Below are positions 31,658-46,695 of a stretch of 64,000 nucleotides of DNA, in pieces. The number at the start of each line of letters is the position of its first letter. Within the stretch, counting starts at the first letter, position 1. Under the pieces are notes generated by a model, which was not told where the DNA came from, ran no database searches, and saw only the letters and a program-made list of their open reading frames with translations. The translations under genes and the position numbers were made by a program. Source of the DNA: an uncultured Candidatus Binatia bacterium (lineage in GTDB: Bacteria > Desulfobacterota > Binatia > HRBIN30); the NCBI GenBank assembly GCA_964524885.1, contig CAZGEJ010000016.1:28629-92628 (forward strand), given 5' to 3'.

Positions 31658-32443
31658 ATGCAGGAGATCATCACCTACGTTGCGAGACCGACAGCAACCC
31701 TACTGGGTTTGGCAGCAGGCTTTCAGTGCCTCGCCTGGTTCCTGCGCCGGCCCTGGTCCCCCAGGAGAGCGGGAACCCTGAGCGACGTCGCTTTCTTCTA
31801 CCTTCACTCTTTCTTCTCCAACGCCGCTTTGCTCATCGCCGTCGTTGCCCTCGTGCGACTTGGGCTACAGCCGCCCGACGCTCTTCGCGACGGATTGCAG
31901 CGCCTTCCCGTCGTAGCGCACGCGATCATCGCTTTCGTCTTGTCGGAAGTCGTCGTGTACTGGATCCATCGCGGTCTGCATCGCCTGCCCATGTGGCATG
32001 TTCATGCGGTGCATCACAGCTCGCCCACTCTGGATTGGCTGAGCACGTACCGCATGCACCCGTTCGAGGTGATGGCGTATGCGCTGGTCCTTCCGATGCT
32101 CCCTTGGCTCGGCATTTCATCCACCGCGTGCCTGTGGGTCGGCATGCTGCGCATCGTGCACAGCCCCCTCGTCCACGCCGACGTGCCTTGGACGTTCGGC
32201 CCCCTGCGCTTCGTGATCGCCAGTCCCGTATTCCACCGTTGGCACCACGAAACCGCGGCAGAGGCACAGGGCAAGAACTTCGCGTCTGCCTTGGCGCTAT
32301 GCGACGTTGTCTTTGGCACCTACTACTGCCCGAGGGGTATCGAGCCGCGCAGCTTCGGCGTACCCGACCCTGTTCCCGAGGGTGTCATCCGCCAACTGGC
32401 GTATCCACTACGCCGCGGCCTCTCGGCCCAGAGCAACGGCTAA
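31658..32443 (+). CDS. Sterol desaturase / fatty acid hydroxylase family protein
   Basis: His boxes YWIHRGLH, HAVHHS, HSPLVH and HRWHH. Confidence 0.9.
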   Translation: MQEIITYVARPTATLLGLAAGFQCLAWFLRRPWSPRRAGTLSDVAFFYLHSFFSNAALLIAVVALVRLGLQPPDALRDGLQRLPVVAHAIIAFVLSEVVVYWIHRGLHRLPMWHVHAVHHSSPTLDWLSTYRMHPFEVMAYALVLPMLPWLGISSTACLWVGMLRIVHSPLVHADVPWTFGPLRFVIASPVFHRWHHETAAEAQGKNFASALALCDVVFGTYYCPRGIEPRSFGVPDPVPEGVIRQLAYPLRRGLSAQSNG

Positions 32444-33075
32444 AGCGCCTCTTCTTCGATGCGGCGGCGGGTCGCCTCCAGGCGCGCCATGCCGCCCAGA
32501 TGCTCGAGAACGATCCGCCAGCTCGTCGTCGCCGGCGATTCGGCAAAGATCGAAAGTTCGATGTGCACTCCCTTGCCGTGGAACACGCTGTAGAGCGAAT
32601 TGCGCTCGGCGAGCAGTCCGAGGGCACCCCGGTCCCCGCTCCATTTCTCGTCCATCTTCTCGTGCCTCTCGCCCTTGCCGTGCTTCTTTTCGAGAAGCGC
32701 TTCGAGTTCGGCATAACGCGCGCGAACGCGGGACAGGTCACGATCCCTGACGAACCCACCGCCAACGGCAGTGATGCGGATCAATCGTTCGTCGTAACCG
32801 AAGGAAAGTACGGCGTAGGCCTGATCCGGCAGAGCACGCGGCAAGTCATGGACGACGTACGAATCGCCATACCGACTCGCCGTCGGATTGCCGAGGGCGA
32901 TGCCGAGATCGGCTACGTCCCTGGGCGACATCAGCCAAGTCAATCCGAAACTGGCCTCACCGACGGCTTCGACCGGTGACGGAACGGGCACCGTCGACGG
33001 CAGCGCGGCGGGCGATTGCCCGAGGGCGGGGTGACTCGCACCGATCAGCAGAACGACAATCCAGGCAATGGCCAT
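32440..33075 (-). CDS. Secreted hypothetical protein, last gene of the Tad-linked run
   Basis: Signal peptide; starts 13 bp after the upstream stop. Confidence 0.6.
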   Translation of the reverse strand: MAIAWIVVLLIGASHPALGQSPAALPSTVPVPSPVEAVGEASFGLTWLMSPRDVADLGIALGNPTASRYGDSYVVHDLPRALPDQAYAVLSFGYDERLIRITAVGGGFVRDRDLSRVRARYAELEALLEKKHGKGERHEKMDEKWSGDRGALGLLAERNSLYSVFHGKGVHIELSIFAESPATTSWRIVLEHLGGMARLEATRRRIEEEAL

Positions 33076-33088
33076 CGCGGCAACAAGT

Positions 33089-34060
33089 TCAGTAGACGTA
33101 GGGAAGGAAGCGCCAACGCACGCGACTGACGTATTCGTCGTAGGCGGGATCCTTGCGAAGCAATCGCTCCTCGACGATGGCCCTGCCCTGCAAAGCGACG
33201 ATCGAGCTGGCGACGAGGATCACGTTGTAGGCGCTGGGGTGAACCAGGGCATAGCCGACGTAACCGACCATGTAGCCCGCGTACATCGGATGCCGCACGA
33301 CGCCATGCAGGCTGCCGGTCTTGACGCCGCGATGGCTGGCAACGACCCCGATGCTGCGTCCCAGGGAAAGGGTACCCAGCAAGGCGATCGTCAGACCGAT
33401 GATCTGCAACGGCGCACCCAGCCACCCTAAATCGCTCATGGTCGCATTGGGTCGCAAGAAGAGCGGGATCGCCGTGCCACCGACACCCAGGATCCAGTCG
33501 AGGGGCCGTGTCGAGGTTTCGCGACTCGGCCGGCGGACGAGGAACAAGAACACGAGGATGCCTTCTTGGATGAGGATCGGAGCCGCCGTGAGCCATTGTG
33601 CCGGGTCCCCTTGGACGGCACGCAGGTGGCGCAGCAAGAACGACCCGAAGAATGCCGCCATGGCCAGGTTGGACACCCACGCGCCGAGCGTCTGCAACGG
33701 GTCACGCACCGCCTCTTCCGCGTGATCGATGGCGACGCGATCGCCCGGACGCAGACCACACTTGGCAATCGTGCCGACGGGCAACTCCAGGACGCTGTGC
33801 GCTTCGTTCACTTTCGGCGAGACGGTGTTCACCGGAAGAGCCTCGATGGCTTCGACGACGCGCAACTCCTCGTCGAGGAATACGACGTCGATCGCATACT
33901 TCATCAGGTACATGTGCACCTGTTTGCAGGGACGGATCCACAGCCCCTCGCCCTCGGGCAGGGATGGGGTCCCCAGCAGCCCCTTCATGCGCGTCCAGTG
34001 CGTGTGCGCCGTACGCAGCCGGGAACAAATCTCGGCCCCGCCAACTATCTGTGCGCGCAT
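33089..34060 (-). CDS. DUF192 / isoprenylcysteine carboxyl methyltransferase (ICMT/PEMT) family fusion
   Basis: N-terminal RMKGLLG..L..GEGLWIRPC..VHMY.MKYAIDVVFLD..VLELP; C-terminal TM bundle with GVVRHPMY and EERLL..Y..Y..RVRWRFLP. Confidence 0.8.
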   Translation of the reverse strand: MRAQIVGGAEICSRLRTAHTHWTRMKGLLGTPSLPEGEGLWIRPCKQVHMYLMKYAIDVVFLDEELRVVEAIEALPVNTVSPKVNEAHSVLELPVGTIAKCGLRPGDRVAIDHAEEAVRDPLQTLGAWVSNLAMAAFFGSFLLRHLRAVQGDPAQWLTAAPILIQEGILVFLFLVRRPSRETSTRPLDWILGVGGTAIPLFLRPNATMSDLGWLGAPLQIIGLTIALLGTLSLGRSIGVVASHRGVKTGSLHGVVRHPMYAGYMVGYVGYALVHPSAYNVILVASSIVALQGRAIVEERLLRKDPAYDEYVSRVRWRFLPYVY

Positions 34061-34072
34061 GCTGCGCCTCCT

Positions 34073-37000
34073 CTACGGTGTCGCCGTCGCGTCGGGAGTC
34101 GGCGTCTCGACCGGCGACTCGGTCGAGGTCGCGGTGGCCGTCGACGTCGGCAAGGCCGTCGGCGTCGGCTCCGGCGTCGCCGTATCCGTGACCGTGGGCG
34201 TCGCCGAAGGCGGTGGCGTGGCGGTATGGGTCGGCTCGGCGGTTGGGGTCGCCGTCAGCGTCGGCAGCGCGGTCTCCGTCGGAGTCGGCGTACCACCACG
34301 TTGCCGCGGCACCACCCGCGCCCGCGCCGCGATGACGTTGACGGCATCATACGAACCGTTGGCTCCGTCGTATTGGCCGTCGCCGTCGGCATCGTAGAGG
34401 AGCTCGTCGACCCCTGCGGTGTAGCTGCCGTCGAGGTCGAGGTCGACGAAAGCGTCCCGCGGTAGATCGGAATACGGCTCACCCTCGTCACGCACCCCAT
34501 TGCGATTGAGGTCGCTGAACGGCTCGGGCCCCAGTGTCGCCAGCGTGATCGCAAACGGCGCCAACGGTGCCGCCACATCGCAGGCGAGCGCCAGGGTGGC
34601 GCCGACGCCGCCTTGCACGTCGGTCAAGTCCGACTCCGAGATGAGACCTCGGCGCCCGTCGATGAAGAAGCCGACGACCTGACCCTCGGGCGCCAGGCTG
34701 CCGCGGAAGTTACCGGCCTGGGCCGACACGTTCGCCTCGACGCCGCCAATGCAGCTTCCGGACTCGTCGACGAGTTCGACGGAAGTATCCGCGAGTTGCA
34801 AACGCGATACGCTCGTGACGTCCACCAACGGACGCGGCGCCGGCTCTTCCGCCTTGATCGGCTGGATCACCACGGCGGCGGTGACGATGCGATCGAAGTC
34901 GTAGCGGCCGTTACCCGTGCCGTCGTAGGTGCCGTCGCCGTCGGCGTCGTAGATGAGCAGATCGCCCGGGCTGAAGGCGCCGTCGTCGTCGGCATCGAGG
35001 AAGGCATCGTCCGGCAGATCGGTGAACGGCTCGCTCGGGTCGAAGCGACCGTTGCGGTTGACGTCGGTGAAGGGCTCGACGCCGCGCATCGCGGCGACGA
35101 TGGTGATCGGCTCTTCGTGGTCGACCCCTTGCGGGCAGGCGGGCCGGAAGCTCGCGCGCGCCTCGCCCTCGACACCGATGAAGGCGGAAGTGGGCATGCC
35201 GCCACGCGTCGGTTCGACGAAGAAGGACACCATGGCGAAGCCCTCGAGGGCCGCGCCGCTGGTGTCGAACGGGGTCGCCGACACGTCGGTGGTTTCGCTG
35301 GTGATGCAGGCGCCGTTCTCATCGAACATCGCCAGGCGTTGCGGCTCCGCAGTGATCGCAATCTGCGCCACCGGTAGCGGACCGAGGTCGAGGGGATCGG
35401 CTGCCGGGCCACGATCGCCGGCGATCCACGGGAACAGCAGCAGCGTCTCGGCCACCACGATGTCGGCATCGTAGACGCCGTTGCTACCGGGGTCATAGGC
35501 GCCGTTGCCGTTGGCGTCGTGGATCAAGTAATCGCCGCGTTGCGGTTCGTAGACGCCGTCGTTGTCACTGTCGAGGAAAACCTCGCTCGGATAGTCGACG
35601 AATGGCTCTCCGAGGTCATGGCGCCGGTTGTTGTTGAGGTCGGCGAACGGCTCGCTACCGCGCGCCGCGGCGACGACGGTGATCGGCTGGGTCGCCGGCT
35701 CCGTGAACGCATTGCCGGCCGGGCAAAGGGAGTGCAATTGCGTCTGGCCATCACCCTCGGGGCCGGTCAGCACCTGCTCGACGACAACACCGCGGCCACG
35801 TTCGACGAAGATGCCGATCGCCGTCTCGGGCGGCACCGGCCGCCCCGCGAAGTCGCCTGCCAAGACGACGATGTCGCCGAGTTCATTGACGATGCAATTG
35901 CGGTTCTCGTCGAACATCTCGAAGCGCACCTCGGTTCCGGCACCGAAACTGAGGGACGACAGGCTCGTCTTCTTCGTCAGGATGTCGAACTCGGGCAAAC
36001 CGAAACGAGTCGGGATGAGCACGGCCTGGCTGCTGACGACGCGATCGTTGTCGTAACGTCCGTTCAGCATCGCGTCGTACTGGCCGTCCCCGTCCTCGTC
36101 GTAGACCAGATAGTCACCGAGATTGGGCTCGAAGACACCGTTGCGATTACCATCGAGGAAGACGTCGGGGGGCAAGTCGACGAACGCTTCGTTGGTATCG
36201 CGGCGACCGTTGCCGTTGCTGTCGGTGAAGGGTTCCCCACCGCGGGTCGCCGCGACGACGGTGATTTCGTCCATCGCGTCGGCTGGACAGAGCGAGCGCA
36301 AGGTCGAGATCGCTCGCCCGGTGGCGTCGGTGGCGGCAACAGGTCCGACCAGACCACGACCGGTTTCGGCGAAGAAAGCGATGGGGACGTCGGCGAGGGC
36401 ACGCCCGCGAGCGTCACCGGCGAGCGCAGTCAGCGACACGGGAACGTCGACCTGACAGCGCCCCGCCGCATCGAAGATCTCGTAGGCGACGTCATCGACG
36501 CCGAGTTGGAACGACATGGACGTCACGCCACGCGCTTCGCGGAAGGCATCCTCGGGCACGAGTTCGGTGCCGATCGGCTGCACCCGGAAAGTGACGCTGA
36601 GAACGGTGTTGGCGTCATAGGTGCCGTTGCCGCCGGCATCGTACAGTCCGTCACCATCGAGATCGCGAACGAGGAACTCGCCCGATTGCGGTTCGTAGAC
36701 GCCGTTGTCGTTGCCGTCGAGGAAGATCTCGTTGGGGAGATCGGTAAACGGCTCGCCGGTGTCGTAGCGTTGGTTCGAGTTGAGGTCGACGTACGGCTCA
36801 CTGCCGACGGTCACGGCGACGACGGTGATGGGCTCCTTGAAGTTGGCGGTGCACTTGTTGCGCAGAAGAACCTGCGCGCGCCCATCACCAGCGGTGTAGG
36901 ATGCGCCGGCGACGCTGCCACGGCCCTGCTCGACGTAGAAATGCACGCGCGCCGCGGGGTTGACCGGGCGGTCGCGCAGGTCCGTCACGAGGGTGGTGAG

Positions 37001-40000
37001 CACTGCGCTGGCATTCGCATCGCACGTGCCATCGGGGGAGACGGAGGTCATGGTCACATCGTCGGGTGTGGCCTCGATGGACATCGGTCGCTTGAAAGCG
37101 GGCGCAAGAGGATCACTCATGCGCTGGCCCGCGCTGTCCGTTGGAATGACGTGCGCCACGTCGGCGAGCACGACGTCGGCATCGTACACGCCGTTGCCAC
37201 CCGTCGGGCTCGGCCCCCGGTCGTACAGTCCGTTCCGGTTGGCGTCGTGGATCAAGAACTCACCGGCCAACGGCTCGAAAATGCCGTTGTCGTTTCCATC
37301 CAGGAAGATCTCGATCGGCTCGTCGAGAAACGGTTCGCCGACGTCGTAGACGCCGTTGGAGTTGAGGTCGGTGAAGGATTCCATGCCGCGCACGGCCGCG
37401 ACGACGGTGATCGGTTGATCGGCGTCGGCCGGGCAGAGGTTGTGGAACGTGGCCAATGCGAGGCCCTCGTCGTCGGTGCGCACCGATTCGGCGAGCACCG
37501 CGCGACCGCTTTCGACGAACAAGGCAATGGCAGTCTCCGGCGGCACCGGTCGGCCACGCAGGTCACCGGCGAGGACCTTGATCTGCGTCGGCGAGACATT
37601 GACCCGGCACCTGCCGTCGGCACCGAACATCACCAATTCGTACTCCCTCACTCCGACGGGCTCACTAGAGCCGGCGAACGAGGTGAAGCCGAGTCGAGAT
37701 ACCGCCGTCCGCGTCGACAGCACCCCCGCGGCGGGCATACCATTGCGGAAGGGGATCAACAGGGTCTCTGACGTGAGGATGTTGTCCGTGTCGTACACGC
37801 CGTTGCCGGCGGCATCGTACTGGCCATTCTGGTTCGCATCCCAGACGAGGAAGTCGCCGAGGGAGGGCTCGAACACACCATCGCGGTCGACATCCAGGAA
37901 GGCGTCACGTGGCAGGTCGACGAACGGCTCGCCCGCGTCGTAGACGCGGTTGCCGTTGAGATCGGTGAAGGGTTCCTTCCCGCGCACCGCCGCGACCACC
38001 GTGATCGGCTCGGCCGCATTCGGCGGGCAAGAGGCAACGATCGTTCCGGTCGCCACGCCATCGACGGTCGTCACGGCCGACTGAGAGACGACGCCGCGGC
38101 CGGGTGCGACGAAGAAGCCGACACGCACGCCGGCCAAGGCGTTGCCTTGAGAATCGCCCGCGAGGGCGACGATGTTGGCCGTGACGCCGGAACGGCAGCG
38201 TCCGAATTCGTCGAAGAGGTTCAGGCGCACGTCCTCCGCCTGCGCCGAGAAATTCAACCGGGAGACGTCGGTGGGTTCGCGCAACGGTTCGGTGGGGGGA
38301 GCCTCGGCGGAGCGAGGCACGATGACGGTCTTGCCGACGAGTACGACGCGCGCGTCGTAGGTACCGTTACTCCCGGGGTCGTACTGGCCATCGCCGTCGG
38401 CGTCGGCGATCAGGAATTCACCTAATTGCGGTTCGTAGAGGTTGTTGCCGTTGCCATCGAGGAACGCCTCGCTCGGCAGGTCGGTGAACGGCTCGCCGGC
38501 GTCCCAGCGGCCATTGCCGTTGACGTCGTCGAAGGGCTCCCTGGTGACGACGGCTGCGGCGACGTCGATCGGATTGTTGAGATCTTGCGGACACAAGGAA
38601 TGAAATTGCGCGTCGGCGCTGCCATTGGTCCCGACCAGCGCGGCCCCTTGTACGCTACCGCGCCCCGCCTCGACGAAGAAGGCCACGGGCGTTCCGGGAT
38701 TGAGCACACGACCGAGGGCGTCCGTCGGGGCGGCGGAGATCGTCGCCGTCACCGGGGAGCAGACGCCGGCCTCCGACACCACCAGGATGCTGCCGGGATC
38801 GGCAGCGACGAACAGCTGCGCCGCGCCCGTCGGCAGGCTGCCCAGGGGATCCTGAGCAGGACCACCATCCTCCTCCCTGTGCGGCACCATCACCACGGAC
38901 GCGACGATCACGTTGTCGGTGTCGTACCGTCCGTTGCCACCGTCGTCGTAGGTCTGGTTGTCATTGGTGTCGAACAGCAGGCGATCACCGACGAACGGAT
39001 CGTATCGACCGTCGCCATCGGCATCGAGGAAGGCTTCGCGCGGCAGATCGATGTACGGCTCGCCGTCGAGAACGCCATTGTCGTTGGCATCGGCGAAGGC
39101 GTCACCGTCGAGGCGACCGTTGTCGTTCCAATCGCGGAACGGCTCACCGGCATCGGGCCGTCCGTTGTTGTTCAGATCGCGATAGGGTTCGCCGCCGTCG
39201 TAGCGGAAGTTGCGGTTGCGGTCGAAGTAAGACTCGCCGCCGTCGAAACGATCGTTGGCGTTCAGATCCAGATACGGTTCCGGGCCGCGCGTCAGAGCGG
39301 TGACGGTGATCGGTTCGGCCGCGGCGGAAGAACCACAGAGCGAGCGGAAGGCGACCTGCGCGACGCCGTCGGCGTCGGTGCGGGCTTGTGCCGGGATGGT
39401 ACCTCGGCCGATCTCCGAGAAAAACGCGATCGGCGCATCGGGAGCAGCGGGACGCCCGGCGCTGTCACCGGCGACCACGACCACATCGGCGACCGCATTG
39501 ACGATACAGGCGCCGCCCTCGGTGAACATCTCGAATTCGATGTCGGTGCCGGCGCTGAAGCTCAACTGCGAGATTCCGGTGAGCGCGAAGTCGGGCGGCA
39601 GCGGTACCGGGCTGCGCGGCAGGAGCACGGCCTTGGCGGAACGAATGACGTCGGCGTCCCAGACTCCGTTGCCGTTGGGATCGAATGCGCCGTTGCCGTT
39701 CGGGTCCCACAGCAACAAGTCGCCGGCGGCCGGATCGAAGGCGCCGTCGTCGTCGCCGTCGAGGAATGCCTCGTTGGGCAGATCGGTGAACGGTTCGCCG
39801 GCGTCGAACACGCCGTTCGAGTTGAGGTCGGTGAACGGCTCGACGCCGCGCACGGCGGCGACGATGGTGATGTTTTCGTGAGCGTTGGCGGGGCAGAGCG
39901 AGCGGAAATTGACGCTGGCGCGGCCGTCCTCGTCGGTGATCGCCTGGCGCGGCAGCAATCCACGGCCGGTTTCGACGAAGAAGGTGATCGGGACATCCGC

Positions 40001-41131
40001 CAGGGGCGCGCCGAGGCGATCGCCGACGACGGCGACGATGGGACGCACGACGTCCTGCTGGCAGCGACCGGCGTCGTCGAACATCTCCACGGTGACGTCG
40101 CCACTGCCGACGGACAACAGGGAGACGTGGGTGGGGCCGGCGATGGTCGGGGTCACCACCGGCGTCCGCACGGGCGTGGGTGTCAGCTCAGGCGTGGGCG
40201 TCACCGAGGCCGGGGTCGAGGTCGGGCCGCCGGGGGTCGGCGTACGGGTGGCGGGACGATTGCCGTCGCTATCGACCGGGATCACCAAGGCGATCTCGGA
40301 GATCAGGGCATTGCCGTCGTAGCGTCCGTTACCGACGGCATCGAAGGTGCGGTTGCCGTTGGCGTCGACGGCGAGGAAGTCGTCCTTGGCCGGATCGAAC
40401 AAGCCGTCGAGGTCCGCGTCGAGGAAGGCATCGACGTCGAGGTCGATGTACGGCTCGCCGTCGAGGGTACCGTTGTTGTTGGCATCGGCGAAGGCCTCAC
40501 CGTCGAGCTGGCCGTTGGCATTGGCATCACGGAAAGGCTCATTGGGGTCGGGCCGACCATTGCGATTGCTGTCGGTATACGCCTCGCCACCGTCGTAACG
40601 GCCATTGCCGTTTTTATCGAGGTACGACTCGCCACCATCGAAGCGACCGTTCGAGTTGAGGTCGGAATACGGCTCGTTGCCGCGTGCCAGAACGAGAATG
40701 GTGATCGGGTCACTCGGGTCGGCGGTACAGAGGGAGCGGAAGGTCACTTCGGCCGTTCCGTCGGGGCCGGTCTTCGCCTCGGCATCGATCAAACCGCGGC
40801 CGCGCTCGACATAAAACGAGACGTCGACGTCCGGCACCGGTCGTCCGCGCACATCGCCGATGATGACGGAGACGCCGGTCGTTTGGTTGAGGAGACAGAA
40901 GCCCTCGTCGGAGATGAGTTCGAGGGTAATGTCAGCGGTGCCGGCGTTGAAACTGATGCGCGACGGTTCGCCGACTTCGGGACGCGGCGTGTTTTCCGGT
41001 TCGGGATTGCCCTCGTCGTAGGCACCTCCGCAACCGGCCGACGACACGCACAGCCCCGCCAACACCGCGACCACGTAACCGAACCGCACCCCTCTGCTCC
41101 GAGATCCCATGGAACACATCCTCCCCATCAT
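34073..41131 (-). CDS. Giant (2352 aa) repeat lipoprotein/adhesin with 11 Ig-like modules bearing DxNxNG Ca-binding-type loops
   Basis: SAGC lipobox; repeated units GD..GRP..FFVE.GRG..T..DG.A...SLCP..EPITVVA..RG.EPFTDLN.NG..D.GEPFTDLP.EAFLD; P/T-rich linker and tail. Confidence 0.85.
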   Translation of the reverse strand: MMGRMCSMGSRSRGVRFGYVVAVLAGLCVSSAGCGGAYDEGNPEPENTPRPEVGEPSRISFNAGTADITLELISDEGFCLLNQTTGVSVIIGDVRGRPVPDVDVSFYVERGRGLIDAEAKTGPDGTAEVTFRSLCTADPSDPITILVLARGNEPYSDLNSNGRFDGGESYLDKNGNGRYDGGEAYTDSNRNGRPDPNEPFRDANANGQLDGEAFADANNNGTLDGEPYIDLDVDAFLDADLDGLFDPAKDDFLAVDANGNRTFDAVGNGRYDGNALISEIALVIPVDSDGNRPATRTPTPGGPTSTPASVTPTPELTPTPVRTPVVTPTIAGPTHVSLLSVGSGDVTVEMFDDAGRCQQDVVRPIVAVVGDRLGAPLADVPITFFVETGRGLLPRQAITDEDGRASVNFRSLCPANAHENITIVAAVRGVEPFTDLNSNGVFDAGEPFTDLPNEAFLDGDDDGAFDPAAGDLLLWDPNGNGAFDPNGNGVWDADVIRSAKAVLLPRSPVPLPPDFALTGISQLSFSAGTDIEFEMFTEGGACIVNAVADVVVVAGDSAGRPAAPDAPIAFFSEIGRGTIPAQARTDADGVAQVAFRSLCGSSAAAEPITVTALTRGPEPYLDLNANDRFDGGESYFDRNRNFRYDGGEPYRDLNNNGRPDAGEPFRDWNDNGRLDGDAFADANDNGVLDGEPYIDLPREAFLDADGDGRYDPFVGDRLLFDTNDNQTYDDGGNGRYDTDNVIVASVVMVPHREEDGGPAQDPLGSLPTGAAQLFVAADPGSILVVSEAGVCSPVTATISAAPTDALGRVLNPGTPVAFFVEAGRGSVQGAALVGTNGSADAQFHSLCPQDLNNPIDVAAAVVTREPFDDVNGNGRWDAGEPFTDLPSEAFLDGNGNNLYEPQLGEFLIADADGDGQYDPGSNGTYDARVVLVGKTVIVPRSAEAPPTEPLREPTDVSRLNFSAQAEDVRLNLFDEFGRCRSGVTANIVALAGDSQGNALAGVRVGFFVAPGRGVVSQSAVTTVDGVATGTIVASCPPNAAEPITVVAAVRGKEPFTDLNGNRVYDAGEPFVDLPRDAFLDVDRDGVFEPSLGDFLVWDANQNGQYDAAGNGVYDTDNILTSETLLIPFRNGMPAAGVLSTRTAVSRLGFTSFAGSSEPVGVREYELVMFGADGRCRVNVSPTQIKVLAGDLRGRPVPPETAIALFVESGRAVLAESVRTDDEGLALATFHNLCPADADQPITVVAAVRGMESFTDLNSNGVYDVGEPFLDEPIEIFLDGNDNGIFEPLAGEFLIHDANRNGLYDRGPSPTGGNGVYDADVVLADVAHVIPTDSAGQRMSDPLAPAFKRPMSIEATPDDVTMTSVSPDGTCDANASAVLTTLVTDLRDRPVNPAARVHFYVEQGRGSVAGASYTAGDGRAQVLLRNKCTANFKEPITVVAVTVGSEPYVDLNSNQRYDTGEPFTDLPNEIFLDGNDNGVYEPQSGEFLVRDLDGDGLYDAGGNGTYDANTVLSVTFRVQPIGTELVPEDAFREARGVTSMSFQLGVDDVAYEIFDAAGRCQVDVPVSLTALAGDARGRALADVPIAFFAETGRGLVGPVAATDATGRAISTLRSLCPADAMDEITVVAATRGGEPFTDSNGNGRRDTNEAFVDLPPDVFLDGNRNGVFEPNLGDYLVYDEDGDGQYDAMLNGRYDNDRVVSSQAVLIPTRFGLPEFDILTKKTSLSSLSFGAGTEVRFEMFDENRNCIVNELGDIVVLAGDFAGRPVPPETAIGIFVERGRGVVVEQVLTGPEGDGQTQLHSLCPAGNAFTEPATQPITVVAAARGSEPFADLNNNRRHDLGEPFVDYPSEVFLDSDNDGVYEPQRGDYLIHDANGNGAYDPGSNGVYDADIVVAETLLLFPWIAGDRGPAADPLDLGPLPVAQIAITAEPQRLAMFDENGACITSETTDVSATPFDTSGAALEGFAMVSFFVEPTRGGMPTSAFIGVEGEARASFRPACPQGVDHEEPITIVAAMRGVEPFTDVNRNGRFDPSEPFTDLPDDAFLDADDDGAFSPGDLLIYDADGDGTYDGTGNGRYDFDRIVTAAVVIQPIKAEEPAPRPLVDVTSVSRLQLADTSVELVDESGSCIGGVEANVSAQAGNFRGSLAPEGQVVGFFIDGRRGLISESDLTDVQGGVGATLALACDVAAPLAPFAITLATLGPEPFSDLNRNGVRDEGEPYSDLPRDAFVDLDLDGSYTAGVDELLYDADGDGQYDGANGSYDAVNVIAARARVVPRQRGGTPTPTETALPTLTATPTAEPTHTATPPPSATPTVTDTATPEPTPTALPTSTATATSTESPVETPTPDATATP

Positions 41132-42054
41132 CGGTTGGCCAGCAACGTGGCGAAGTCGGCGAAACGTAGTGCCGCAGGCCCGATGACGATTACGAACAGC
41201 GGCGGCAAGAGAAACATGGCAAGCGGGATGAGAATCTTGATCGGCAGCTTACGCGCCGTCTCTTCCGCGCGCTGCCGGCGCTTGGTGCGCAACAAGTCGG
41301 CGTGCGCACGCAGGGTCACGGCCATACTCGCGCCGAGCCGATTGCTCTGGACGATCATGGCGGTCAGCGATTTCAGGTCGTCGACGCCATTGCGCGTACC
41401 CAGAGCGTAGAGCGAATCGTCGCGTCCGCGGCCGGCGCGGAGATCCTCGGCGACGACATTGAACTCGAAGCCCAGCGGGTCGTCGAGCGATCCCCGTTCT
41501 TCTCCCACCTTGGCAATGGCCGCATTGAGTCCCAGACCCGCCTCGAGGCAGATGACCATGAGATCGAGGGCGTCCGGCAGGGCGTGAATGATGGCCGTCT
41601 TGCGGCGGTTGCTCTTTCGGCTCAGCCAGTAGTTGGTGCCGAAGTGGCCGAGACAAAAGGCGCCCAGGGTATGCCACACCGAACTACCCAAGGGTTCGCC
41701 GCTCGTGACCCGCGGCACCAGAATGGCGAGAGCCGGAGCGAAGCTGAGGAGGGTGCGCATGCCGAGAAAAAATGGCAGGGCCGTCGCACTCCTGTACCCC
41801 GCGGAGGAGAGCAGCAATCCGATCGACTGATCGTTGCGGCGAAAGGCGAATCGGCCGATGCCGCTGACGACCGCCATGAGAAAGCCGGGGGCGCCGCCAC
41901 GGGTGCCGGGCTGGTCGAACCGGACGACCTCCTCCCCCGTGGTCAACGTTCTGAGGCGGGCCGCGATCGGCGACTCGGAGGTGGTGATGTAGAACGTCAC
42001 CAGAATGAGCAGGTTGATGATGGCGAAAACCGAGGCCGTGATGATGATCGTCAT
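41128..42054 (-). CDS. tadC: Tad inner-membrane platform protein TadC (copy 1)
   Basis: LPDALDLMVICLEAGLG..R.RRQRAEE.ARKLPIKILIPL. Confidence 0.92.
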   Translation of the reverse strand: MTIIITASVFAIINLLILVTFYITTSESPIAARLRTLTTGEEVVRFDQPGTRGGAPGFLMAVVSGIGRFAFRRNDQSIGLLLSSAGYRSATALPFFLGMRTLLSFAPALAILVPRVTSGEPLGSSVWHTLGAFCLGHFGTNYWLSRKSNRRKTAIIHALPDALDLMVICLEAGLGLNAAIAKVGEERGSLDDPLGFEFNVVAEDLRAGRGRDDSLYALGTRNGVDDLKSLTAMIVQSNRLGASMAVTLRAHADLLRTKRRQRAEETARKLPIKILIPLAMFLLPPLFVIVIGPAALRFADFATLLANR

Positions 42055-42057
42055 CGG

Positions 42058-43020
42058 TCAGACCTTGATTTGAACGATACGCTGGATCACCAGGTGGCCG
42101 GTGATGATGCTCACGGCGCAGTAGGCGAGCATGTAGTGTCCTGCCGACTTCGAGAGCATCGCCTCGAAATAGCCGGGCAGGATGAAATACAACAAGACAC
42201 CGACCGCCACCGGGAGGCAACTCAGAAGAATGCCGGACAAGCGTCCTTGCGCGGTCATCGTCTCGACGTCGCGCAACAGCTTGAAGCGTTCGCGGACCGT
42301 GTGCGAGACGTTCTCCAGAACCTCGACGAGATTGCCGCCCGATTCTTGGACGACGAGTACGCCGACGATGAACATCGGCAGATTCTCGTCCGGGACGCGT
42401 TCTTGCAGACCGAGCAGGGCCTCCCGCGTCGGCAGTCCGTGACGAATCTCTTCGGCGACGGTGTCGAGTTCCTGCGCGATCGGGTCGGGGAAGTCGTCGG
42501 CGACGACCTTCAACGAGGTGAGGAAGCTATGACCAGCCTGCAACGCCGCCTTGATCAAGTCGAGAGCGTCGGGCAACTGCTCGGCGAACTTCGCGACGCG
42601 CTGCTTGCGCATGCGATTGATGATCATCATCGGCACGAACAGCCCCATGCCGCCGAACGCGGCGGCAATCACAGGGGAGTCGGTCAACAGCATGCCGGCG
42701 AGAACACCGAGTGAACCGAGTAGCGGGATGAATAGGATCACCTCGCCCACGCGTCTCCGTAGCCCCGCCTGTCGCATGAGCAGCGCCAGTCGGCGCACGA
42801 AGGAACTGCTCTCGAGGATTCGATTGAGTGCTTGGATACTGGAAAGGCGGCGATCGAGCACCACGTCGCCCGTTTCGAATTCGCTCACCACGCCCGTCTG
42901 CTTGTCGAGCCGGTCGCGCAAGGTCGCGCGGGCCTCGTCGCGTTCGCCGAGGGACGTCGATAGGGCCCACCCCATGAGCACGACGGCGACGAAGAAGCTG
43001 ATGGCGATGATCGCAAGCAC
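42058..43020 (-). CDS. tadB: Tad platform protein TadB (copy 1)
   Basis: EQLPDALDL..ALQAGHS, ESGGNL and TAQGRLSG motifs. Confidence 0.92.
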   Translation of the reverse strand: MLAIIAISFFVAVVLMGWALSTSLGERDEARATLRDRLDKQTGVVSEFETGDVVLDRRLSSIQALNRILESSSFVRRLALLMRQAGLRRRVGEVILFIPLLGSLGVLAGMLLTDSPVIAAAFGGMGLFVPMMIINRMRKQRVAKFAEQLPDALDLIKAALQAGHSFLTSLKVVADDFPDPIAQELDTVAEEIRHGLPTREALLGLQERVPDENLPMFIVGVLVVQESGGNLVEVLENVSHTVRERFKLLRDVETMTAQGRLSGILLSCLPVAVGVLLYFILPGYFEAMLSKSAGHYMLAYCAVSIITGHLVIQRIVQIKV

Positions 43021-43033
43021 GACGCCAGTCTCC

Positions 43034-44449
43034 TCAACGACGAGTCAGGTACTCGAATGCCGCAAGGTCGACTTCGTGGCTCGAAGCCTTGAGGCGACTG
43101 AGGAAGGTCGGTCGGATACCGGTCGACTTGAACTGACCGATGATCTTGCCCGACTCGCCGATGCCCTCGCGCTCGAACACGAATACGTCCTGCAATTGAA
43201 GCGAGTCGCCCTCCATGCCCACCACCTCGGTGATACTGACCGTCTTGCGTCGGCCGTCGGCGAGGCGGGCGGTCTGGACGATGATGTCGAGAGCCGAGGC
43301 GATCTGCTGGCGCATGGCGCGCATCGGCAGCGTCAGGCCGGACATCTGCAGCATCATTTCGAGGCGGCCGAGAGCGTCGCGTGGCGTATTGGCGTGCAGC
43401 GTCGAAATCGAACCGTCGTGGCCGGTGTTCATCGCTTGCAACATGTCGAGCGCCTCGGCACCGCGCACCTCGCCGACGACGATGCGGTCGGGACGCATAC
43501 GCAAGCTGTTGCGCACGAGATCGCGGGCGGTCACCTCGCCGCGCCCTTCGATGTTGGGCGGACGCGACTCGAGCCGCACCACGTGCGGCTGTTGCAATTG
43601 TAGTTCGGCGGAGTCCTCGATCGTGACGATGCGTTCGGTGCGCGGGATGAACGACGACAGGCAGTTCAACAAGGTCGTCTTGCCTGAACCGGTGCCGCCG
43701 GAAACGAGGATGTTGAGCCGGGCCGAGACCATCGCCTTGAGCACGGCGACCATGGGCTCGGTGATCGATTCGTTGCGGATGAGGTCCTCGACGCCGAGTG
43801 GTTTGGCGCCGAAACGGCGGATCGACACGGCCGGTCCGTCGAGGGCCAGCGGCGGGATGATGGCGTTGACGCGCGAGCCGTCGGGTAGGCGCGCGTCGAC
43901 CATCGGCGAGCTCTCGTCGATGCGGCGGCCGATGCTGGCGACGATGCGGTCGATGATCTGCATCAGGTGATCATCGTCGCGAAAGATCACTTGCGTCAGC
44001 TCGAGTTTACCGAAGCGCTCGACGTAGACGTTCTGGCTGCCGTTGATGAGGATGTCGGTGACGTCCGGGTCGCGCATCAACGGCTCGATCGGGCCGAGGC
44101 CGTAGACCTCCGCCTGGATTTCTTCCGCCAACACGACGCGATCGCGCTGGCTGAGCGGCGAGCGATCCTCGTTGAGCAACTGCAGGATCACCTGGCGCAC
44201 TTGGGCGCTGGCTTCCTCGCGTGCCAACTGACCCAGGTTGCTCAAATCGACCGCTTGCAACAACTCGCGGTGGATCCGCAGCTTGAGGTCCTGGCGAGCG
44301 CGATCGGCGACGCTCAAGCGGCTCCGAATGGCCATCGACTTGGCCTCGGCCGACTGCGGCGCCAGGGGTGCGGGCGGCTGTGGCGTGACCGGAGCCGCCG
44401 GTGCGGGTTTCGGTTCGCCGTCGCCTGGCCCCTTGCGGAACAGTCTCAT
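43034..44449 (-). CDS. cpaF: Tad secretion ATPase CpaF/TadA (copy 1)
   Basis: [29 protein letters not shown] and MNTGHDG motifs. Confidence 0.96.
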
Positions 44450-45648
44450 CGATTCGCCCCTCGTCCGAAGCCGAACAATCGCTTGAGCAGCGGCGCGCCG
44501 CTGCTCTTGGCTTCCTGCCCGGTCAATTTCACCGCGAGTTCGCCGATGGCGTTGCTCAGAGCGCCATCGCGCGCCGTCAACGGTGTACCAGCGTTCATCG
44601 CCTCGCAGGCGGCGTTGAGGTCACGCGGTAGCGACAGCATCGGCTTCTTGCCGATGGCCGCCGCGGCGTCATCCTGCGAGATGCCGCTCTTGAAGAACTC
44701 GGTGGTCAGCACCTGGACGCGCTCGAGATCGATCTCGAGCCGTTGAAAGAGGTCCAGACTGCGTTGACCGGCGCGCAAACCGGGAATGGACAGATCCGTG
44801 AGCAACAAGATGTGCGTCGCCTGCTCGAAGACCGCCAGAGTGACGTCGGTCAGCGTACGCGGGGTGTCGACGAAGACGAAGCGGTGGGCACCACGCATGA
44901 GGTGGAGTCCGGCCTCGACCTGGTCGCGACCGATGCCGTCGGCGTCCTCGATGTCGTTCGGAGCCGGGAGCACCGCCACACCGCTGCTATGGCGCGTCAG
45001 GATGCCGTCGAGGAAGACGGCGTCCACCTCGGAATAGGTCTGCGCCATGGCGGCGAGCGACTGTCGCGGCGTCAAGTTGAGGAAGGCGGCGACATCACCA
45101 CGCTGCAGATCGAGATCGATGAGGCCGACGGGCTCGCTCGACAAGGTGGTCGCGCGCACCGCGAGATTGACCGCCAGGGTGGTGGCTCCGAGACCGCCGC
45201 GAGCGCCGAAGACGGTGATGACGTCTCCCTGCTGCGACGAGCCGGTGGGTTGAGTGCGCGTATGGCTGAGCCGCAGGAACGCTTTGTGCACCTCGGTCGG
45301 CACGAGCGGTAGCGACAAGAAGTCCGCGGCGCCTGCCGTCAAGGCCGAGCGCATGGTCTCGAGACTGGCATCGGCCGAGGCGGCGACGACGGTGAGATGC
45401 GGGTGTTGGTCGCGCAACTGCCGGATGCGCGCCACTCCTTCGGCAACCCGATCGGAGCCGATCTCGACGACGACCGCCACCCAACGCTGGTTCGGCAGCG
45501 CGGTGGCGACTTCGGAGTCCAGGCTGAACTGAATGTCGAAGTGGAAGGGTTCTCCCGCGGCTTGGACCTTGGCCCTGTCCGCCGCTTCGTTCGGGGTACT
45601 CACCCAAAGCAAAGGCCGGGAATTCGACTTGTCGCTTGCGCCTGCCAT
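44446..45648 (-). CDS. cpaE: CpaE/TadZ receiver-like plus MinD-like ATPase
   Basis: Degenerate receiver N-terminus, [16 protein letters not shown] and [10 protein letters not shown]. Confidence 0.88.
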
Positions 45649-45708: not shown

Positions 45709-46695
45709 TCACTCGACGAGTGTGATGACCCCGGTCCCGAAATAGGCGCCGCCACCACCACCGCTACCCGGGTCGGCGACGCGCCCTTGGAGTACCAAAC
45801 CCGTATCGGCGCTTGGTTCCGCGACGATATCGAACGTGGCGAATCCAGTGATCTCGCCCGTGCCGGCGCTGAAGGACTCGCACGGCACCACCGGCACTTG
45901 AATGCGCGTCACGCCCCGATTCCAAAGACAATGTTTCACGCAATTGAGCAATTCCGTCCTGAATCGGTGGGAGTTCGAGATCAGAGCGATCTGCTCCCTG
46001 ACTTGCACCGACCCTGTTCCGTCGTTGCTCCCCGCACAACGGGAGACCGGACAGTCACTCGCAAAGATTGCGACATAACTCGAAAGCGAGGACGGATCGC
46101 CACCGTAAGTCGTCCACCCGGTCTGCGGCAAGTTCCTCCCCCCTGCTCCCGAAAGCTGGGGCATGCAGGAATCGTCGTAGCAATCCTCGGGGAGTCGACA
46201 CGCACCGATGACGAGAGGAAGCGGTGGTGCCGGTATGTCGGATTCCCCCTGGACGGCCGCCACGGACCGAGCGCTGATGGCGATGGTTTGGCCCGACAAG
46301 ATCGGCGGCATCGTCTCGTTGGTGATCACCTCGACGGCGTTTTCGGGCCCGATGCCTGCCCGATAGCCGGTGGCCGGGGCGTAGTTGCCGGTGGTGATGC
46401 TGACGATGTTGGCGTCCGTAAGCGGCGACCCGCCGGCGACGGTGCTGAAGATGTTGGAGGTGACCATGGCCCGCGCTTCCAGCGTGGGCGAGTCACCCTG
46501 AAACAGCGCTTCAGCGCCGGCCAGCGCACCGGCATCGGCGGCGTTCTGCATCTCCGAGAGCACCGTGTACATCTGGCCCATGCCGACTCCCAGGCCGGCA
46601 AAGGCCAGGATCGCACCGATGGACACCGCACCGAACGGCAAGGCGAAGCCTCGCTGGTCGCGCAGGATGCTGAGCTGGGAGCGCATGGCACGCAA
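45709..46695 (-). CDS. TadG-like minor pilin
   Basis: RGF-type prepilin start and EMQNAADAGALAGA motif. Confidence 0.75.
   Translation of the reverse strand: MRAMRSQLSILRDQRGFALPFGAVSIGAILAFAGLGVGMGQMYTVLSEMQNAADAGALAGAEALFQGDSPTLEARAMVTSNIFSTVAGGSPLTDANIVSITTGNYAPATGYRAGIGPENAVEVITNETMPPILSGQTIAISARSVAAVQGESDIPAPPLPLVIGACRLPEDCYDDSCMPQLSGAGGRNLPQTGWTTYGGDPSSLSSYVAIFASDCPVSRCAGSNDGTGSVQVREQIALISNSHRFRTELLNCVKHCLWNRGVTRIQVPVVPCESFSAGTGEITGFATFDIVAEPSADTGLVLQGRVADPGSGGGGGAYFGTGVITLVE

What the first reader, a model, noticed from the sequence alone, without database searches (positions are those of the whole stretch)
34073..41131. 2352-aa Ca-loop/Ig repeat lipoprotein translationally coupled to tadC
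Its ATG overlaps the tadC stop. It has 11 modules, each with a Cys pair, an invasin-like Ig core and an inserted run of DxNxNG/DxDxDG loops (longer in modules 1 and 3), and ends in a bare P/T-rich tail. This looks like a Ca2+-stiffened surface adhesin, possibly displayed with or through the Tad apparatus, an arrangement I do not recognise from characterised Tad systems.
Basis: partly seen in the sequence, partly recalled or inferred. Interest (0 to 1): 0.75.

Follow-up and report, generated by a model that had tools for sequence, protein, structure and literature searches.

The report
Giant Ig-repeat lipoprotein in Tad operon
A 2,352-residue lipoprotein made of 11 intimin-like Ig modules, each carrying calcium-loop motifs, sits directly after tadC in every related pilus locus I could inspect, so it is probably a pilus-linked surface adhesin of a kind not yet described.

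Summary
ORF 34073-41131 (-) encodes a 2,352-aa acidic lipoprotein with 11 diverged modules. Each module has a Cys pair, a Big_1/intimin-type Ig core and EF-hand-like DxNxNG loops. Modules 1 and 3 carry 59 extra residues (four more loops), and the protein ends in a P/T-rich tail. One correction: the ATG/TGA overlap exists, but the likely start is Met8 (GGAGG 9 nt upstream), which leaves a 17-nt gap.

The tad linkage is conserved. In all 12 loci with upstream sequence, from Candidatus Binatia MAGs or unnamed metagenomes, the homologue directly follows tadC. In all 12 with downstream sequence, a DUF192(-PEMT) gene follows it.

Relatives are also pilus-linked. About 2,000-aa lipoproteins follow pilMNOPQ-aro genes (4/4). 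About 350-aa single-module lipoproteins lie between pilQ and aroK in Burkholderiales (6/6).

AlphaFold models are confident (pLDDT 92-93). Only the Ig core has a PDB match. The loop region matches no Pfam family.

Best reading: an exported, Ca2+-stiffened Ig rod that works with the Tad pilus, probably as a surface adhesin. Surface exposure, Ca2+ binding and the export route are inferred, not shown. I rate it a new variant of a known kind.

The parts
34073..41131 (-). Longest ORF of the giant lipoprotein (2352 aa; mature form about 244 kDa, pI 4.1)
41108..41110 (-). Probable true start codon (Met8). GGAGG at 41124-41120 lies 9 nt upstream.
   Evidence: Sequence read. The database gene call P0001 (2345 aa) starts here.
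41128..41131 (-). ATGA overlap between the first in-frame ATG and the tadC stop codon
41030..41110 (-). Lipoprotein signal peptide with lipobox SSAG|C (Cys34 codon 41030-41032), followed by GG
   Evidence: The lipobox is conserved in P0002-P0007.
40154..40987 (-). Module 1 (aa 49-326). It is the family-wide conserved membrane-proximal module and includes the P/T linker at 40130-40258.
40460..40636 (-). Insertion in module 1: 59 residues forming four extra ~15-residue EF-hand-like loops (aa 166-224)
39599..40153 (-). Module 2 (aa 327-511), the module modelled by AlphaFold2 (pLDDT 93.1)
38852..39598 (-). Module 3 (aa 512-760) with the long loop insertion at 39065-39241; AlphaFold2 pLDDT 91.5
34844..38851 (-). 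Modules 4-10. Boundaries: 38288-38851, 37700-38287, 37115-37699, 36548-37114, 35987-36547, 35399-35986, 34844-35398.
34298..34843 (-). Module 11, the most divergent module. The same module type ends a block in P0002 and P0003.
34076..34297 (-). P/T-rich C-terminal tail (aa 2279-2352). It corresponds to an internal linker in orthologue P0002.
41128..42054 (-). tadC (T2SSF platform protein)
42058..43020 (-). tadB (T2SSF platform protein)
43034..44449 (-). tadA/cpaF ATPase (T2SSE)
44446..45648 (-). tadZ/cpaE (receiver-like domain plus ParA-type ATPase)
45709..46695 (-). TadG/TadE-like pseudopilin (PF13400)
46717..48201 (-). cpaC/rcpA secretin
48234..49067 (-). cpaB/rcpC
49092..49574 (-). tadE-like minor pilin
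49586..50245 (-). Prepilin peptidase, assigned by position and by similarity to Peptidase_A24 genes in L002, L003 and L015
50203..50397 (-). Flp-type pilin (MVAFIKNLVKDTKGQDLAEYG...)
33089..34060 (-). DUF192 fused to a PEMT/ICMT-like membrane methyltransferase, 12 nt after the giant's stop. A DUF192 gene is the downstream neighbour in 12/12 informative loci.
32440..33075 (-). 211-aa protein with no family match, conserved after DUF192 in L001, L004, L019 and L020. The L001 copy begins with a signal-peptide-like N-terminus.

Best explanation
The gene encodes an exported, lipid-anchored, strongly acidic rod. It is built from 11 old, diverged modules. Each module is an intimin/invasin-type (Big_1) Ig domain with one probable disulfide. 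A subdomain of about 65 residues, carrying three to four EF-hand-like loops, follows the Big_1-matching core.

Proposed mechanism (inferred): after Sec export and lipidation at Cys34, Ca2+ fills the loops (34 loop motifs, 10 with the full 12-residue EF-hand pattern) and stiffens the chain. My estimate for the rod is about 45-55 nm, with flexible P/T hinges after module 1 and at the C-terminus.

The gene is co-transcribed with the Tad (Flp) pilus genes and is functionally tied to that machine. The most likely role is a surface adhesin or spacer: the pilus makes first contact, and the rod then holds the cell to the surface or to other cells. The membrane-proximal module 1, the only part conserved across the whole family, is the likely point of contact with the envelope or the pilus machine.

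Shown: the sequence anatomy, the confident fold, and the conserved synteny. Inferred: Ca2+ binding, outer-membrane or surface location, adhesion, and the export route.
For: - Lipobox: present here and conserved in all six homologues.
- Modules: 11 modules with Cys pairs. Big_1 scores 116 bits.
- Structure: AlphaFold2 gives pLDDT 93.1 and 91.5, with one long final strand after the loop region. Foldseek's best hit is intimin D00-D0.
- Loops: EF-hand ligand positions D109, N111, N113, D117 and E120 are invariant or at least 90% conserved in 43 modules. There are 34 loop motifs against 0.6 expected by chance. The mature protein has pI 4.06, with 368 acidic and 146 basic residues.
- Age of the repeats: modules are 30-58% identical to each other, yet show 1:1 positional orthology with P0002 at 54-81%. 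They are maintained, not recently amplified.
- Operon structure: 17 nt (or an overlap) to tadC and 12 nt to the next gene. No promoter or terminator signal exceeds the shuffle expectation.
- Synteny: tadC is immediately upstream in 12/12 loci and DUF192 immediately downstream in 12/12. This includes the P0007/L006/L008 type, in which every module except module 1 has been replaced by other Ig repeats.
- Relatives beside pilMNOPQ operons.
- Precedents: Lig lipoproteins with Ca2+-binding Big domains (PMC3012076), and the invasin-like lipoprotein InvL, which reaches the surface through a T2SS (PMC9245377).
Against: - There is no experimental evidence of any kind. The close homologues all come from metagenome assemblies, and the two with a named organism are Candidatus Binatia MAGs.
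- The loop region matches no Pfam Ca2+-binding family (best EF-hand_6 E=0.41) and no PDB fold. No recognisable ligand-binding tip domain was found.
- I could not inspect model coordinates, so neither the disulfide nor the rod geometry was verified.
- The conserved gene order lies within one clade. Part of it could be inheritance rather than function.
- A lipoprotein directly after tadC or after a secretin gene could equally be a machine component (compare TadD and CpaD; PMC13170226).
Confidence: 0.5

Rival explanations
1. It is a structural accessory of the pilus machine rather than an adhesin. Module 1 docks on the secretin, doing the job that the lipoproteins TadD (pilotin) or CpaD (belt around the secretin) do elsewhere. 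The remaining modules would form a spacer or crown around the pilus exit.
For: - The gene sits directly after tadC, which from my own knowledge of Aggregatibacter and Pseudomonas tad loci is where tadD lies.
- No TPR (TadD-like) gene was detected among the ORFs I scanned in the locus and its flanks. That scan did not cover every ORF.
- In Burkholderiales the single-module homologue is the gene immediately after the pilQ secretin in 6/6 loci.
- Only module 1 is conserved across the whole family.
- Tad systems use varied outer-membrane lipoproteins with the secretin (PMC13170226).
Against: - The protein has no TPR or OmpA-like domain.
- A protein of about 244 kDa with variable module number (about 7 to 15) and swappable arrays behaves like a surface adhesin, not a stoichiometric machine part.
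- In the pilMNOPQ-aro loci the giant is separated from pilQ by aro genes and a small lipoprotein.
Confidence: 0.2
2. It is a substrate of the Tad machine. After lipidation it is pushed through the CpaC secretin by the Flp filament acting as a piston, as T2SSs do for surface lipoproteins. It then stays lipid-anchored on the outer leaflet or is released.
For: - Operon-encoded proteins are exported by related machines: TcpF by the toxin-coregulated pilus (PMC10120004, PMC9565799) and CofJ with CFA/III (PMC6048534).
- InvL, an invasin-like lipoprotein, needs the T2SS to reach the surface (PMC9245377).
- Linkage to Tad and T4aP secretin operons is conserved.
- No other secretion system genes were found nearby.
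Against: - I know of no report of protein secretion by a Tad system.
- A rod of about 244 kDa made of folded, probably disulfide-bonded modules would have to pass a pore sized for a 4-5.5 nm pilus (PMC13170226).
- No export signal was identified.
- Nothing in the sequence distinguishes this route from other ways of exposing lipoproteins on the surface.
Confidence: 0.2
3. It is a hitch-hiker: a general cell-surface or matrix protein whose position after tadC has simply been inherited within one clade, with no functional dependence on the pilus.
For: - All Tad-linked homologues come from related genomes (TadA 70-77% identical). The only organism names available are Candidatus Binatia.
- Modules of this type also occur in several thousand other large proteins whose genomic context I did not examine (3881 representatives at E<=1e-3).
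Against: - Gene order is kept in 12/12 loci, while the giant itself has diverged to 27-42% identity or had its array replaced.
- Intergenic gaps are very short.
- A second and a third association with type IVa pilus operons exist. One is in a different phylum: the Burkholderiales proteins match the module profile at E 1e-13 to 1e-6 even when scaled to 1.8e9 sequences.
Confidence: 0.1

Closest known systems
Leptospira LigA/LigB (surface lipoproteins with 12-13 tandem Big domains; PMC3012076, PMC3236721)
   Same: Both have an N-terminal lipobox followed by a long array of bacterial Ig-like domains. Ca2+ binding by the Ig modules has been reported for Lig. Both fit an adhesin-on-a-stalk design.
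   Different: Lig domains are described as plain Big folds without an added loop subdomain, and no Big_2 match was found here. Here the core is Big_1, followed by a ~65-residue EF-hand-like loop subdomain. From my knowledge, lig genes are not pilus-linked.
Acinetobacter InvL (invasin-like lipoprotein and T2SS substrate; PMC9245377)
   Same: Both are lipoproteins of the intimin/invasin structural class that lack the T5SS beta-barrel. InvL's surface display depends on a type IV filament superfamily machine, which is the best precedent for a display-through-the-machine idea.
   Different: InvL was found in a T2SS secretome screen rather than by operon position. The paper describes no Ca-loop modules. 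The machine is a T2SS, not Tad.
Intimin/invasin (Big_1, inverse autotransporters; PDB 6tqd, 6tpl, 1f00)
   Same: The Ig core matches by Pfam (116 bits) and is the best Foldseek hit.
   Different: No N-terminal beta-barrel or LysM domain and no C-terminal lectin-like tip were detected. The match covers only about 91-96 of 185-249 residues (TM normalised to query 0.24-0.34).
Ca2+-stiffened Ig rods: S. aureus SdrD B repeats, SiiE, RTX adhesins (PMC6272769; SdrD from my own knowledge)
   Same: Tandem Ig-like repeats whose Ca2+ sites make a rigid spacer. SdrD B repeats contain EF-hand-like loops.
   Different: The SdrD_B Pfam match is only E 0.13-0.32. Those proteins are sortase- or T1SS-dependent. 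No RTX, T1SS or LPXTG features were detected here.
Tad outer-membrane lipoproteins TadD, CpaO and CpaD (PMC13170226)
   Same: All are lipoproteins encoded in tad loci. TadD acts as a secretin pilotin and CpaD forms a belt around the secretin. This gene lies directly after tadC.
   Different: Those are small: CpaD is 225 aa with an OmpA-like fold, and CpaO is alpha-helical and horseshoe-shaped. This protein is 2352 aa of Ig modules with no TPR or OmpA match.
Operon-encoded proteins exported by type IVb pili: TcpF and CofJ (PMC10120004, PMC9565799, PMC6048534)
   Same: Each is a non-pilin protein encoded within a type IV pilus operon and needed together with the pilus.
   Different: They are small soluble proteins that bind the minor pilin at the pilus tip. 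They are neither lipoproteins nor repeat proteins.

Membership tests
Big_1 / intimin-invasin Ig domain (PF02369) | Pfam Big_1 score above the gathering threshold | tested here: met
   The whole protein scores 116.1 bits against a cut-off of 34.9, over 7 stretches. Single modules alone score only 24-32 bits.
Big_1 / intimin-invasin Ig domain (PF02369) | Ig fold superimposable on intimin or invasin domains | tested here: met
   Foldseek's best hits are intimin 6tqd, 6tpl and 1f00, probability 1.0, rmsd about 4.1-4.3 A over 91-96 residues.
Inverse autotransporter adhesins (intimin/invasin, T5eSS) | N-terminal outer-membrane beta-barrel translocator (with or without LysM) | tested here: not met
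   The N-terminus is a lipobox followed about 15 residues later by module 1. No barrel or LysM family was hit.
Inverse autotransporter adhesins (intimin/invasin, T5eSS) | C-terminal lectin-like receptor-binding tip | tested here: not met
   The C-terminus is module 11 plus a P/T tail, with no other domain hit.
Bacterial lipoprotein | Signal peptide ending in a lipobox with an invariant Cys | tested here: met
   The sequence is ...VAVLAGLCVSSAG|C34GG. It aligns with L-x-[AG]-C-G-G in P0002-P0007 and in further family members.
Bacterial lipoprotein | Actual lipidation and membrane or leaflet location | not testable with these tools
   Needs globomycin or palmitate labelling, fractionation and protease shaving.
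EF-hand-like / DxDxDG Ca2+-binding loops | Oxygen ligands at loop positions 1, 3, 5, 9 and 12, with Gly at position 6 | tested here: met
   D109, N111, N113, D117 and E120 are invariant or at least 90% conserved in 43 modules. There are 34 core motifs and 10 full 12-residue motifs, against 0.6 and 0.01 expected.
EF-hand-like / DxDxDG Ca2+-binding loops | Match to a curated Ca2+-binding family (EF-hand, TSP3, dockerin, RTX) | tested here: not met
   The long loop run gave no Pfam hit. The short one gave only EF-hand_6 at E=0.41 and SdrD_B at E=0.32. No PDB sequence hit had E<0.1.
EF-hand-like / DxDxDG Ca2+-binding loops | Measured Ca2+ binding | not testable with these tools
   Needs ITC, 45Ca overlay, or CD with and without EGTA.
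TadD-type pilotin | TPR-containing lipoprotein encoded after tadC | tested here: not met
   The lipoprotein feature and the position are met, but no TPR family is detected.
Type IV (pseudo)pilins / Tad tip minor pilins (PMC12075869) | Class III signal peptide cleaved by the prepilin peptidase, with a TadE/F/G N-terminal helix | tested here: not met
   The N-terminus carries a lipobox (signal peptidase II type) and has no TadE or Tad Pfam hit. The true pseudopilins of the locus are at 49092-49574 and 45709-46695.
RTX/T1SS giant adhesins | C-terminal RTX nonapeptides and a T1SS signal, with T1SS genes nearby | tested here: not met
   No HemolysinCabind hit, and the neighbouring genes scanned encode no T1SS components.
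Proposed family: pilus-operon-linked Big_1/EF-loop lipoproteins | Lipobox, a module of the module-1 type, and a gene placed directly after tadC or in a pilMNOPQ operon | tested here: met
   tadC is upstream in 12/12 loci. The pilMNOPQ-aro context holds in 4/4 and the pilQ-X-aroK context in 6/6. The profile matches at E 1e-13 to 1e-6 with Z=1.8e9.

The most novel reading that the evidence does not exclude
Lipoproteins built on a Big_1 Ig core plus an EF-hand-like loop may form a previously unrecognised accessory class of type IV filament machines. They range from about 350-aa single-module forms between pilQ and aroK in Burkholderiales to 1,500-3,100-aa arrays after tadC or pilMNOPQ-aro in Binatia-like bacteria. 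Module 1 would dock on the secretin. The array would then be threaded or displayed through or around the secretin, which would make Tad and type IVa pilus machines lipoprotein-display systems in the manner of T2SSs.
Probability: 0.25. Interest if true: 0.8.

Novelty: new variant of a known kind. Interest (0 to 1): 0.62.

Why it matters
Tad pili are widespread adhesion, predation and colonisation organelles, and their outer-membrane components and partners differ between lineages and are still being worked out (PMC13170226). Here a large, confidently folded but unclassified lipoprotein keeps a fixed position in the tad operon, and its relatives are fixed in type IVa pilus operons of another phylum. 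That points to a missing partner, either an adhesin or a machine part, of type IV filament systems.

It also defines a composite module, an Ig domain with an added EF-hand-like loop subdomain, that has no solved structure.

The small Burkholderiales homologue makes the idea directly testable. It occurs in a named strain, Aquabacterium lacunae KMB7, and in a Methylibium MAG, whereas the organisms carrying the giant form are known only from metagenome assemblies.

Tried and rejected
- The 43-module alignment was too diverse to seed a genome scan. I replaced it with a module-1 alignment.
- A profile search against PDB sequences found nothing below E=0.17.
- NCBIfam has no family for the giant.
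- A Pfam scan of the isolated loop regions found no family.
- An in-silico splice that removed the loop region only extended the Big_1 match from profile positions 21-73 to about 19-85 of 93. It did not capture the last strand, so the sequence test for 'loops inserted inside the Ig domain' is inconclusive. The only support is the DSSP pattern of one long terminal strand after the loops.
- The promoter and terminator scan gave counts no higher than shuffles.
- Literature searches for DUF192/COG1430 and for a gene between pilQ and aroK found nothing relevant.
- Rejected: pilin or tip minor pilin (lipobox, not a prepilin signal); RTX/T1SS adhesin; inverse autotransporter (no barrel); PEP-CTERM sorting (the tail has no PEP motif, TM helix or basic end, although an exosortase-like gene lies downstream in L005).
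Three of them (L011, L012, L026) share flanking synteny (PrpD, FtsJ), so I count these loci as one lineage.
Full report

Yes. The minus-strand ORF 34073..41131 encodes 2352 aa. Its first ATG (41131-41129) overlaps the TGA (41130-41128) of the upstream ORF 41128..42054, a T2SSF/TadC platform protein.

The overlap is probably not the functional start. A GGAGG (41124-41120) lies 9 nt before Met8 (41110-41108). The database gene call for the identical protein (P0001, 2345 aa) begins at Met8. In orthologous loci the tadC-to-giant gap is 12-76 nt, with no overlap. Either way the genes are packed as an operon: 17 nt upstream and 12 nt to the next gene. A promoter and terminator scan found nothing above shuffle expectation.

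**2. Anatomy**

- After a signal peptide and lipobox (SSAG|C34-GG) come 11 modules of about 185-196 aa.
- Each module has a Cys pair 56-58 residues apart.
- Modules 1 and 3 carry a 59-residue insertion made of four extra ~15-residue repeats of D-x-N-x-N-G-x-x-D-x-G-E-x-[YF] (aa 166-224 and 631-689).
- A P/T linker follows module 1, and a 74-residue P/T tail ends the protein.
- There are 34 D-x-[DN]-x-[DN]-G motifs, against 0.6 expected from 1000 composition shuffles (maximum 5). Ten match the full 12-residue EF-hand pattern.
- The mature protein is about 244 kDa with pI 4.06.
- In an alignment of 43 canonical modules from six proteins, both Cys are invariant. So, at 90% or better, are D109, N111, N113, D117 and E120, which are positions 1, 3, 5, 9 and 12 of the first loop and correspond to the EF-hand ligand positions.

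**3. Fold**

Pfam finds Big_1 for the whole protein (116 bits, 7 stretches). Single modules score 24-32 bits, below the cut-off.

AlphaFold2 with module alignments gives confident models. Module 2 has pLDDT 93.1 and pTM 0.87. Module 3 has pLDDT 91.5 and pTM 0.85. Both show a beta-sandwich core, then a mostly non-regular loop region, then one long final strand.

Foldseek against the PDB finds intimin D00-D0, D0-D1 and 1f00 as best hits, but only over 91-96 residues (TM normalised to query 0.24-0.34). The loop subdomain has no match among the hits listed. It also has no Pfam family, no NCBIfam family and no PDB sequence relative.

Whether the loops are truly inserted between the last two Ig strands rests on the DSSP pattern. 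A sequence splice test was inconclusive, and I could not inspect coordinates.

**4. Relatives and context**

Close homologues are rare. Six were found among 5.8 billion clustered proteins (P0002-P0007), all from metagenome assemblies. All have canonical lipoboxes. Module numbers range from about 7 to 15, and some have P/T tails while others do not.

The window protein and P0002 (67% identity) show 1:1 positional orthology of modules 1-11 (54-81%). Modules within the window protein are only 30-58% identical to each other. The array is therefore old and maintained. P0002 continues with four more modules after the stretch that forms the window's tail, so the tail is a linker type.

In the P0007/L006/L008 type, only the lipobox and module 1 are kept. 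The rest is a different Ig repeat separated by P/T linkers.

Gene order:
- tadC lies immediately upstream in 12 of 12 loci that include upstream sequence (window, L001, L002, L003, L005-L008, L015-L018).
- A DUF192 gene, usually fused to a PEMT/ICMT-like methyltransferase, lies immediately downstream in 12 of 12 (window, L001-L006, L008, L018-L021).
- A 211-aa protein with no family match follows in several loci.
- The only organism names obtained are Candidatus Binatia MAGs.

The full locus reads flp, prepilin peptidase, tadE, cpaB, cpaC, tadG-like, tadZ, tadA, tadB, tadC, giant, DUF192-PEMT, 211-aa. No TPR (TadD-like) gene was detected among the ORFs I scanned in the locus and its flanks.

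**5. A wider pattern**

A profile of the module finds 3881 representatives at E<=1e-3 and 65 at E<=1e-30 among 1.84 billion. Some of these scores are probably inflated by the D/N/G-rich loops.

One group consists of lipoproteins of about 1,650-3,150 aa with Big_1 and Invasin_D3, an L-x-A-C-poly-Gly lipobox, and often P/T tails. All four that I looked up lie after pilMNOPQ, aroK and/or aroB, and a Cys-rich lipoprotein of about 200-230 aa. Three of those loci (L011, L012, L026) share flanking synteny, so I count these loci as one lineage.

Independently, a ~350-aa lipoprotein with one such module and exactly one DxNxNGxYDxGE loop lies between pilQ and aroK in 6 of 6 loci from Burkholderiales or their metagenomic relatives (Aquabacterium lacunae, a Burkholderiaceae MAG, Methylibium, and unnamed metagenome contigs). 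These proteins match the Binatia module profile at E 1e-13 to 1e-6 even when scaled to 1.8e9 sequences.

Lipoproteins of this module family are thus linked to type IV filament operons in at least three settings.

**6. Mechanism**

My best-supported reading has confidence about 0.5. The protein is an exported, lipid-anchored Ig rod, stiffened by Ca2+, that works with the Tad pilus as a surface adhesin or spacer. Module 1 would be the conserved membrane-proximal contact.

Shown: the anatomy, the confident fold and the synteny. Inferred: Ca2+ binding, surface exposure, the rod length of about 45-55 nm, and adhesion.

Rivals:
- A secretin-associated machine lipoprotein in the role of TadD or CpaD (0.2; PMC13170226).
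- Export through the Tad secretin as a T2SS-like lipoprotein substrate (0.2). This is a sub-mechanism compatible with the main reading. Precedents are InvL (PMC9245377), TcpF (PMC10120004, PMC9565799) and CofJ (PMC6048534).
- An inherited hitch-hiker with no functional tie to the pilus (0.1).

It is not a pilin or tip minor pilin (PMC12075869), because it carries a lipobox and not a prepilin signal.

**7. Comparison and novelty**

It works like Lig-type or InvL-type Ig lipoprotein adhesins and like Ca2+-rigidified Ig rods (SdrD B repeats, SiiE). It fails membership of the inverse autotransporters (no barrel, no lectin tip), the RTX adhesins and the TadD pilotins.

The composite module and the conserved placement in Tad and T4aP operons appear undescribed in the literature I could search.

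Rating: a new variant of a known kind, interest 0.62. A more novel reading is that this is a new class of secretin-associated or secretin-displayed lipoproteins of type IV filament machines. I give that about 0.25 probability.

Noticed in passing
window 50856-55600 (-): A second, partial tad gene set lies directly upstream of the main locus: TadE-like 55091-55600, CpaB 54229-55059, TadA 52793-54163, TadB-like 51793-52767, TadC-like 50856-51782. It has no secretin, no TadZ and no giant lipoprotein. L002 also has a T2SSF gene before flp.
   Followed up: partly
L010 9776-10825 (Aquabacterium lacunae NZ_SIXI01000001); also L009, L022-L025: A ~350-aa lipoprotein (LSAC|GGG) with one Big_1 core and one DxNxNGxYDxGE loop lies between pilQ and aroK in 6/6 loci from Burkholderiales or their metagenomic relatives. 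It appears to be an uncharacterised member of the pilMNOPQ operon.
   Followed up: partly
L011 10001-15241, L012 10001-15925, L013 7517-15709, L026 10001-17176: Big_1 + Invasin_D3 lipoproteins of 1,746-2,730 aa with poly-Gly after the lipobox follow pilMNOPQ, aroK and/or aroB, and a Cys-rich lipoprotein of about 200-230 aa. The C-terminal motif of P0011 (...SPNGGGVFLIASGTVD) resembles that of the Tad-linked P0007.
   Followed up: partly
window 33089-34060 (-): A DUF192 (COG1430) domain fused to a PEMT/ICMT-like membrane methyltransferase is the invariable downstream neighbour of the giant. It is DUF192 alone in L003 and L004, and apparently also in L020 and L021. Its function and its relation to the giant or the pilus are unknown.
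   Followed up: partly
window 32440-33075 (-): A 211-aa protein with no Pfam or NCBIfam match is conserved after DUF192 in L001 (59% identity), L004, L019 and L020. The L001 copy begins with a signal-peptide-like N-terminus.
   Followed up: partly
L006 10001-17581 (P0007); L008: A Tad-linked variant keeps the lipobox and module 1 but replaces the rest with about 13 copies of a different Ig-like repeat (Cys pair 16 residues apart). The copies are separated by P/T linkers, and Ca-loop modules appear again at the C-terminus.
   Followed up: partly
window module 1, aa ~79-90 (about 40862-40897): Module 1 carries a conserved C-x-x-N-x-T motif (CLLNQTT here; N-Q-T, N-E-T or N-V-T in orthologues) that is absent from the other modules. 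Whether it matters for glycosylation, for structure or not at all is unknown.
   Followed up: no
window 23250-24467 (+) and 25875-29282 (+): A phage-integrase-family gene and a 1135-aa ORF with a weak HZS_alpha middle-domain hit lie downstream of the tad block. A GDPD phosphodiesterase gene is at 29819-30706 (-).
   Followed up: no
L005 8129-8671: An exosortase (EpsH-like) gene lies just downstream of the DUF192-PEMT gene in one orthologous locus. The giant has no PEP-CTERM signal.
   Followed up: no
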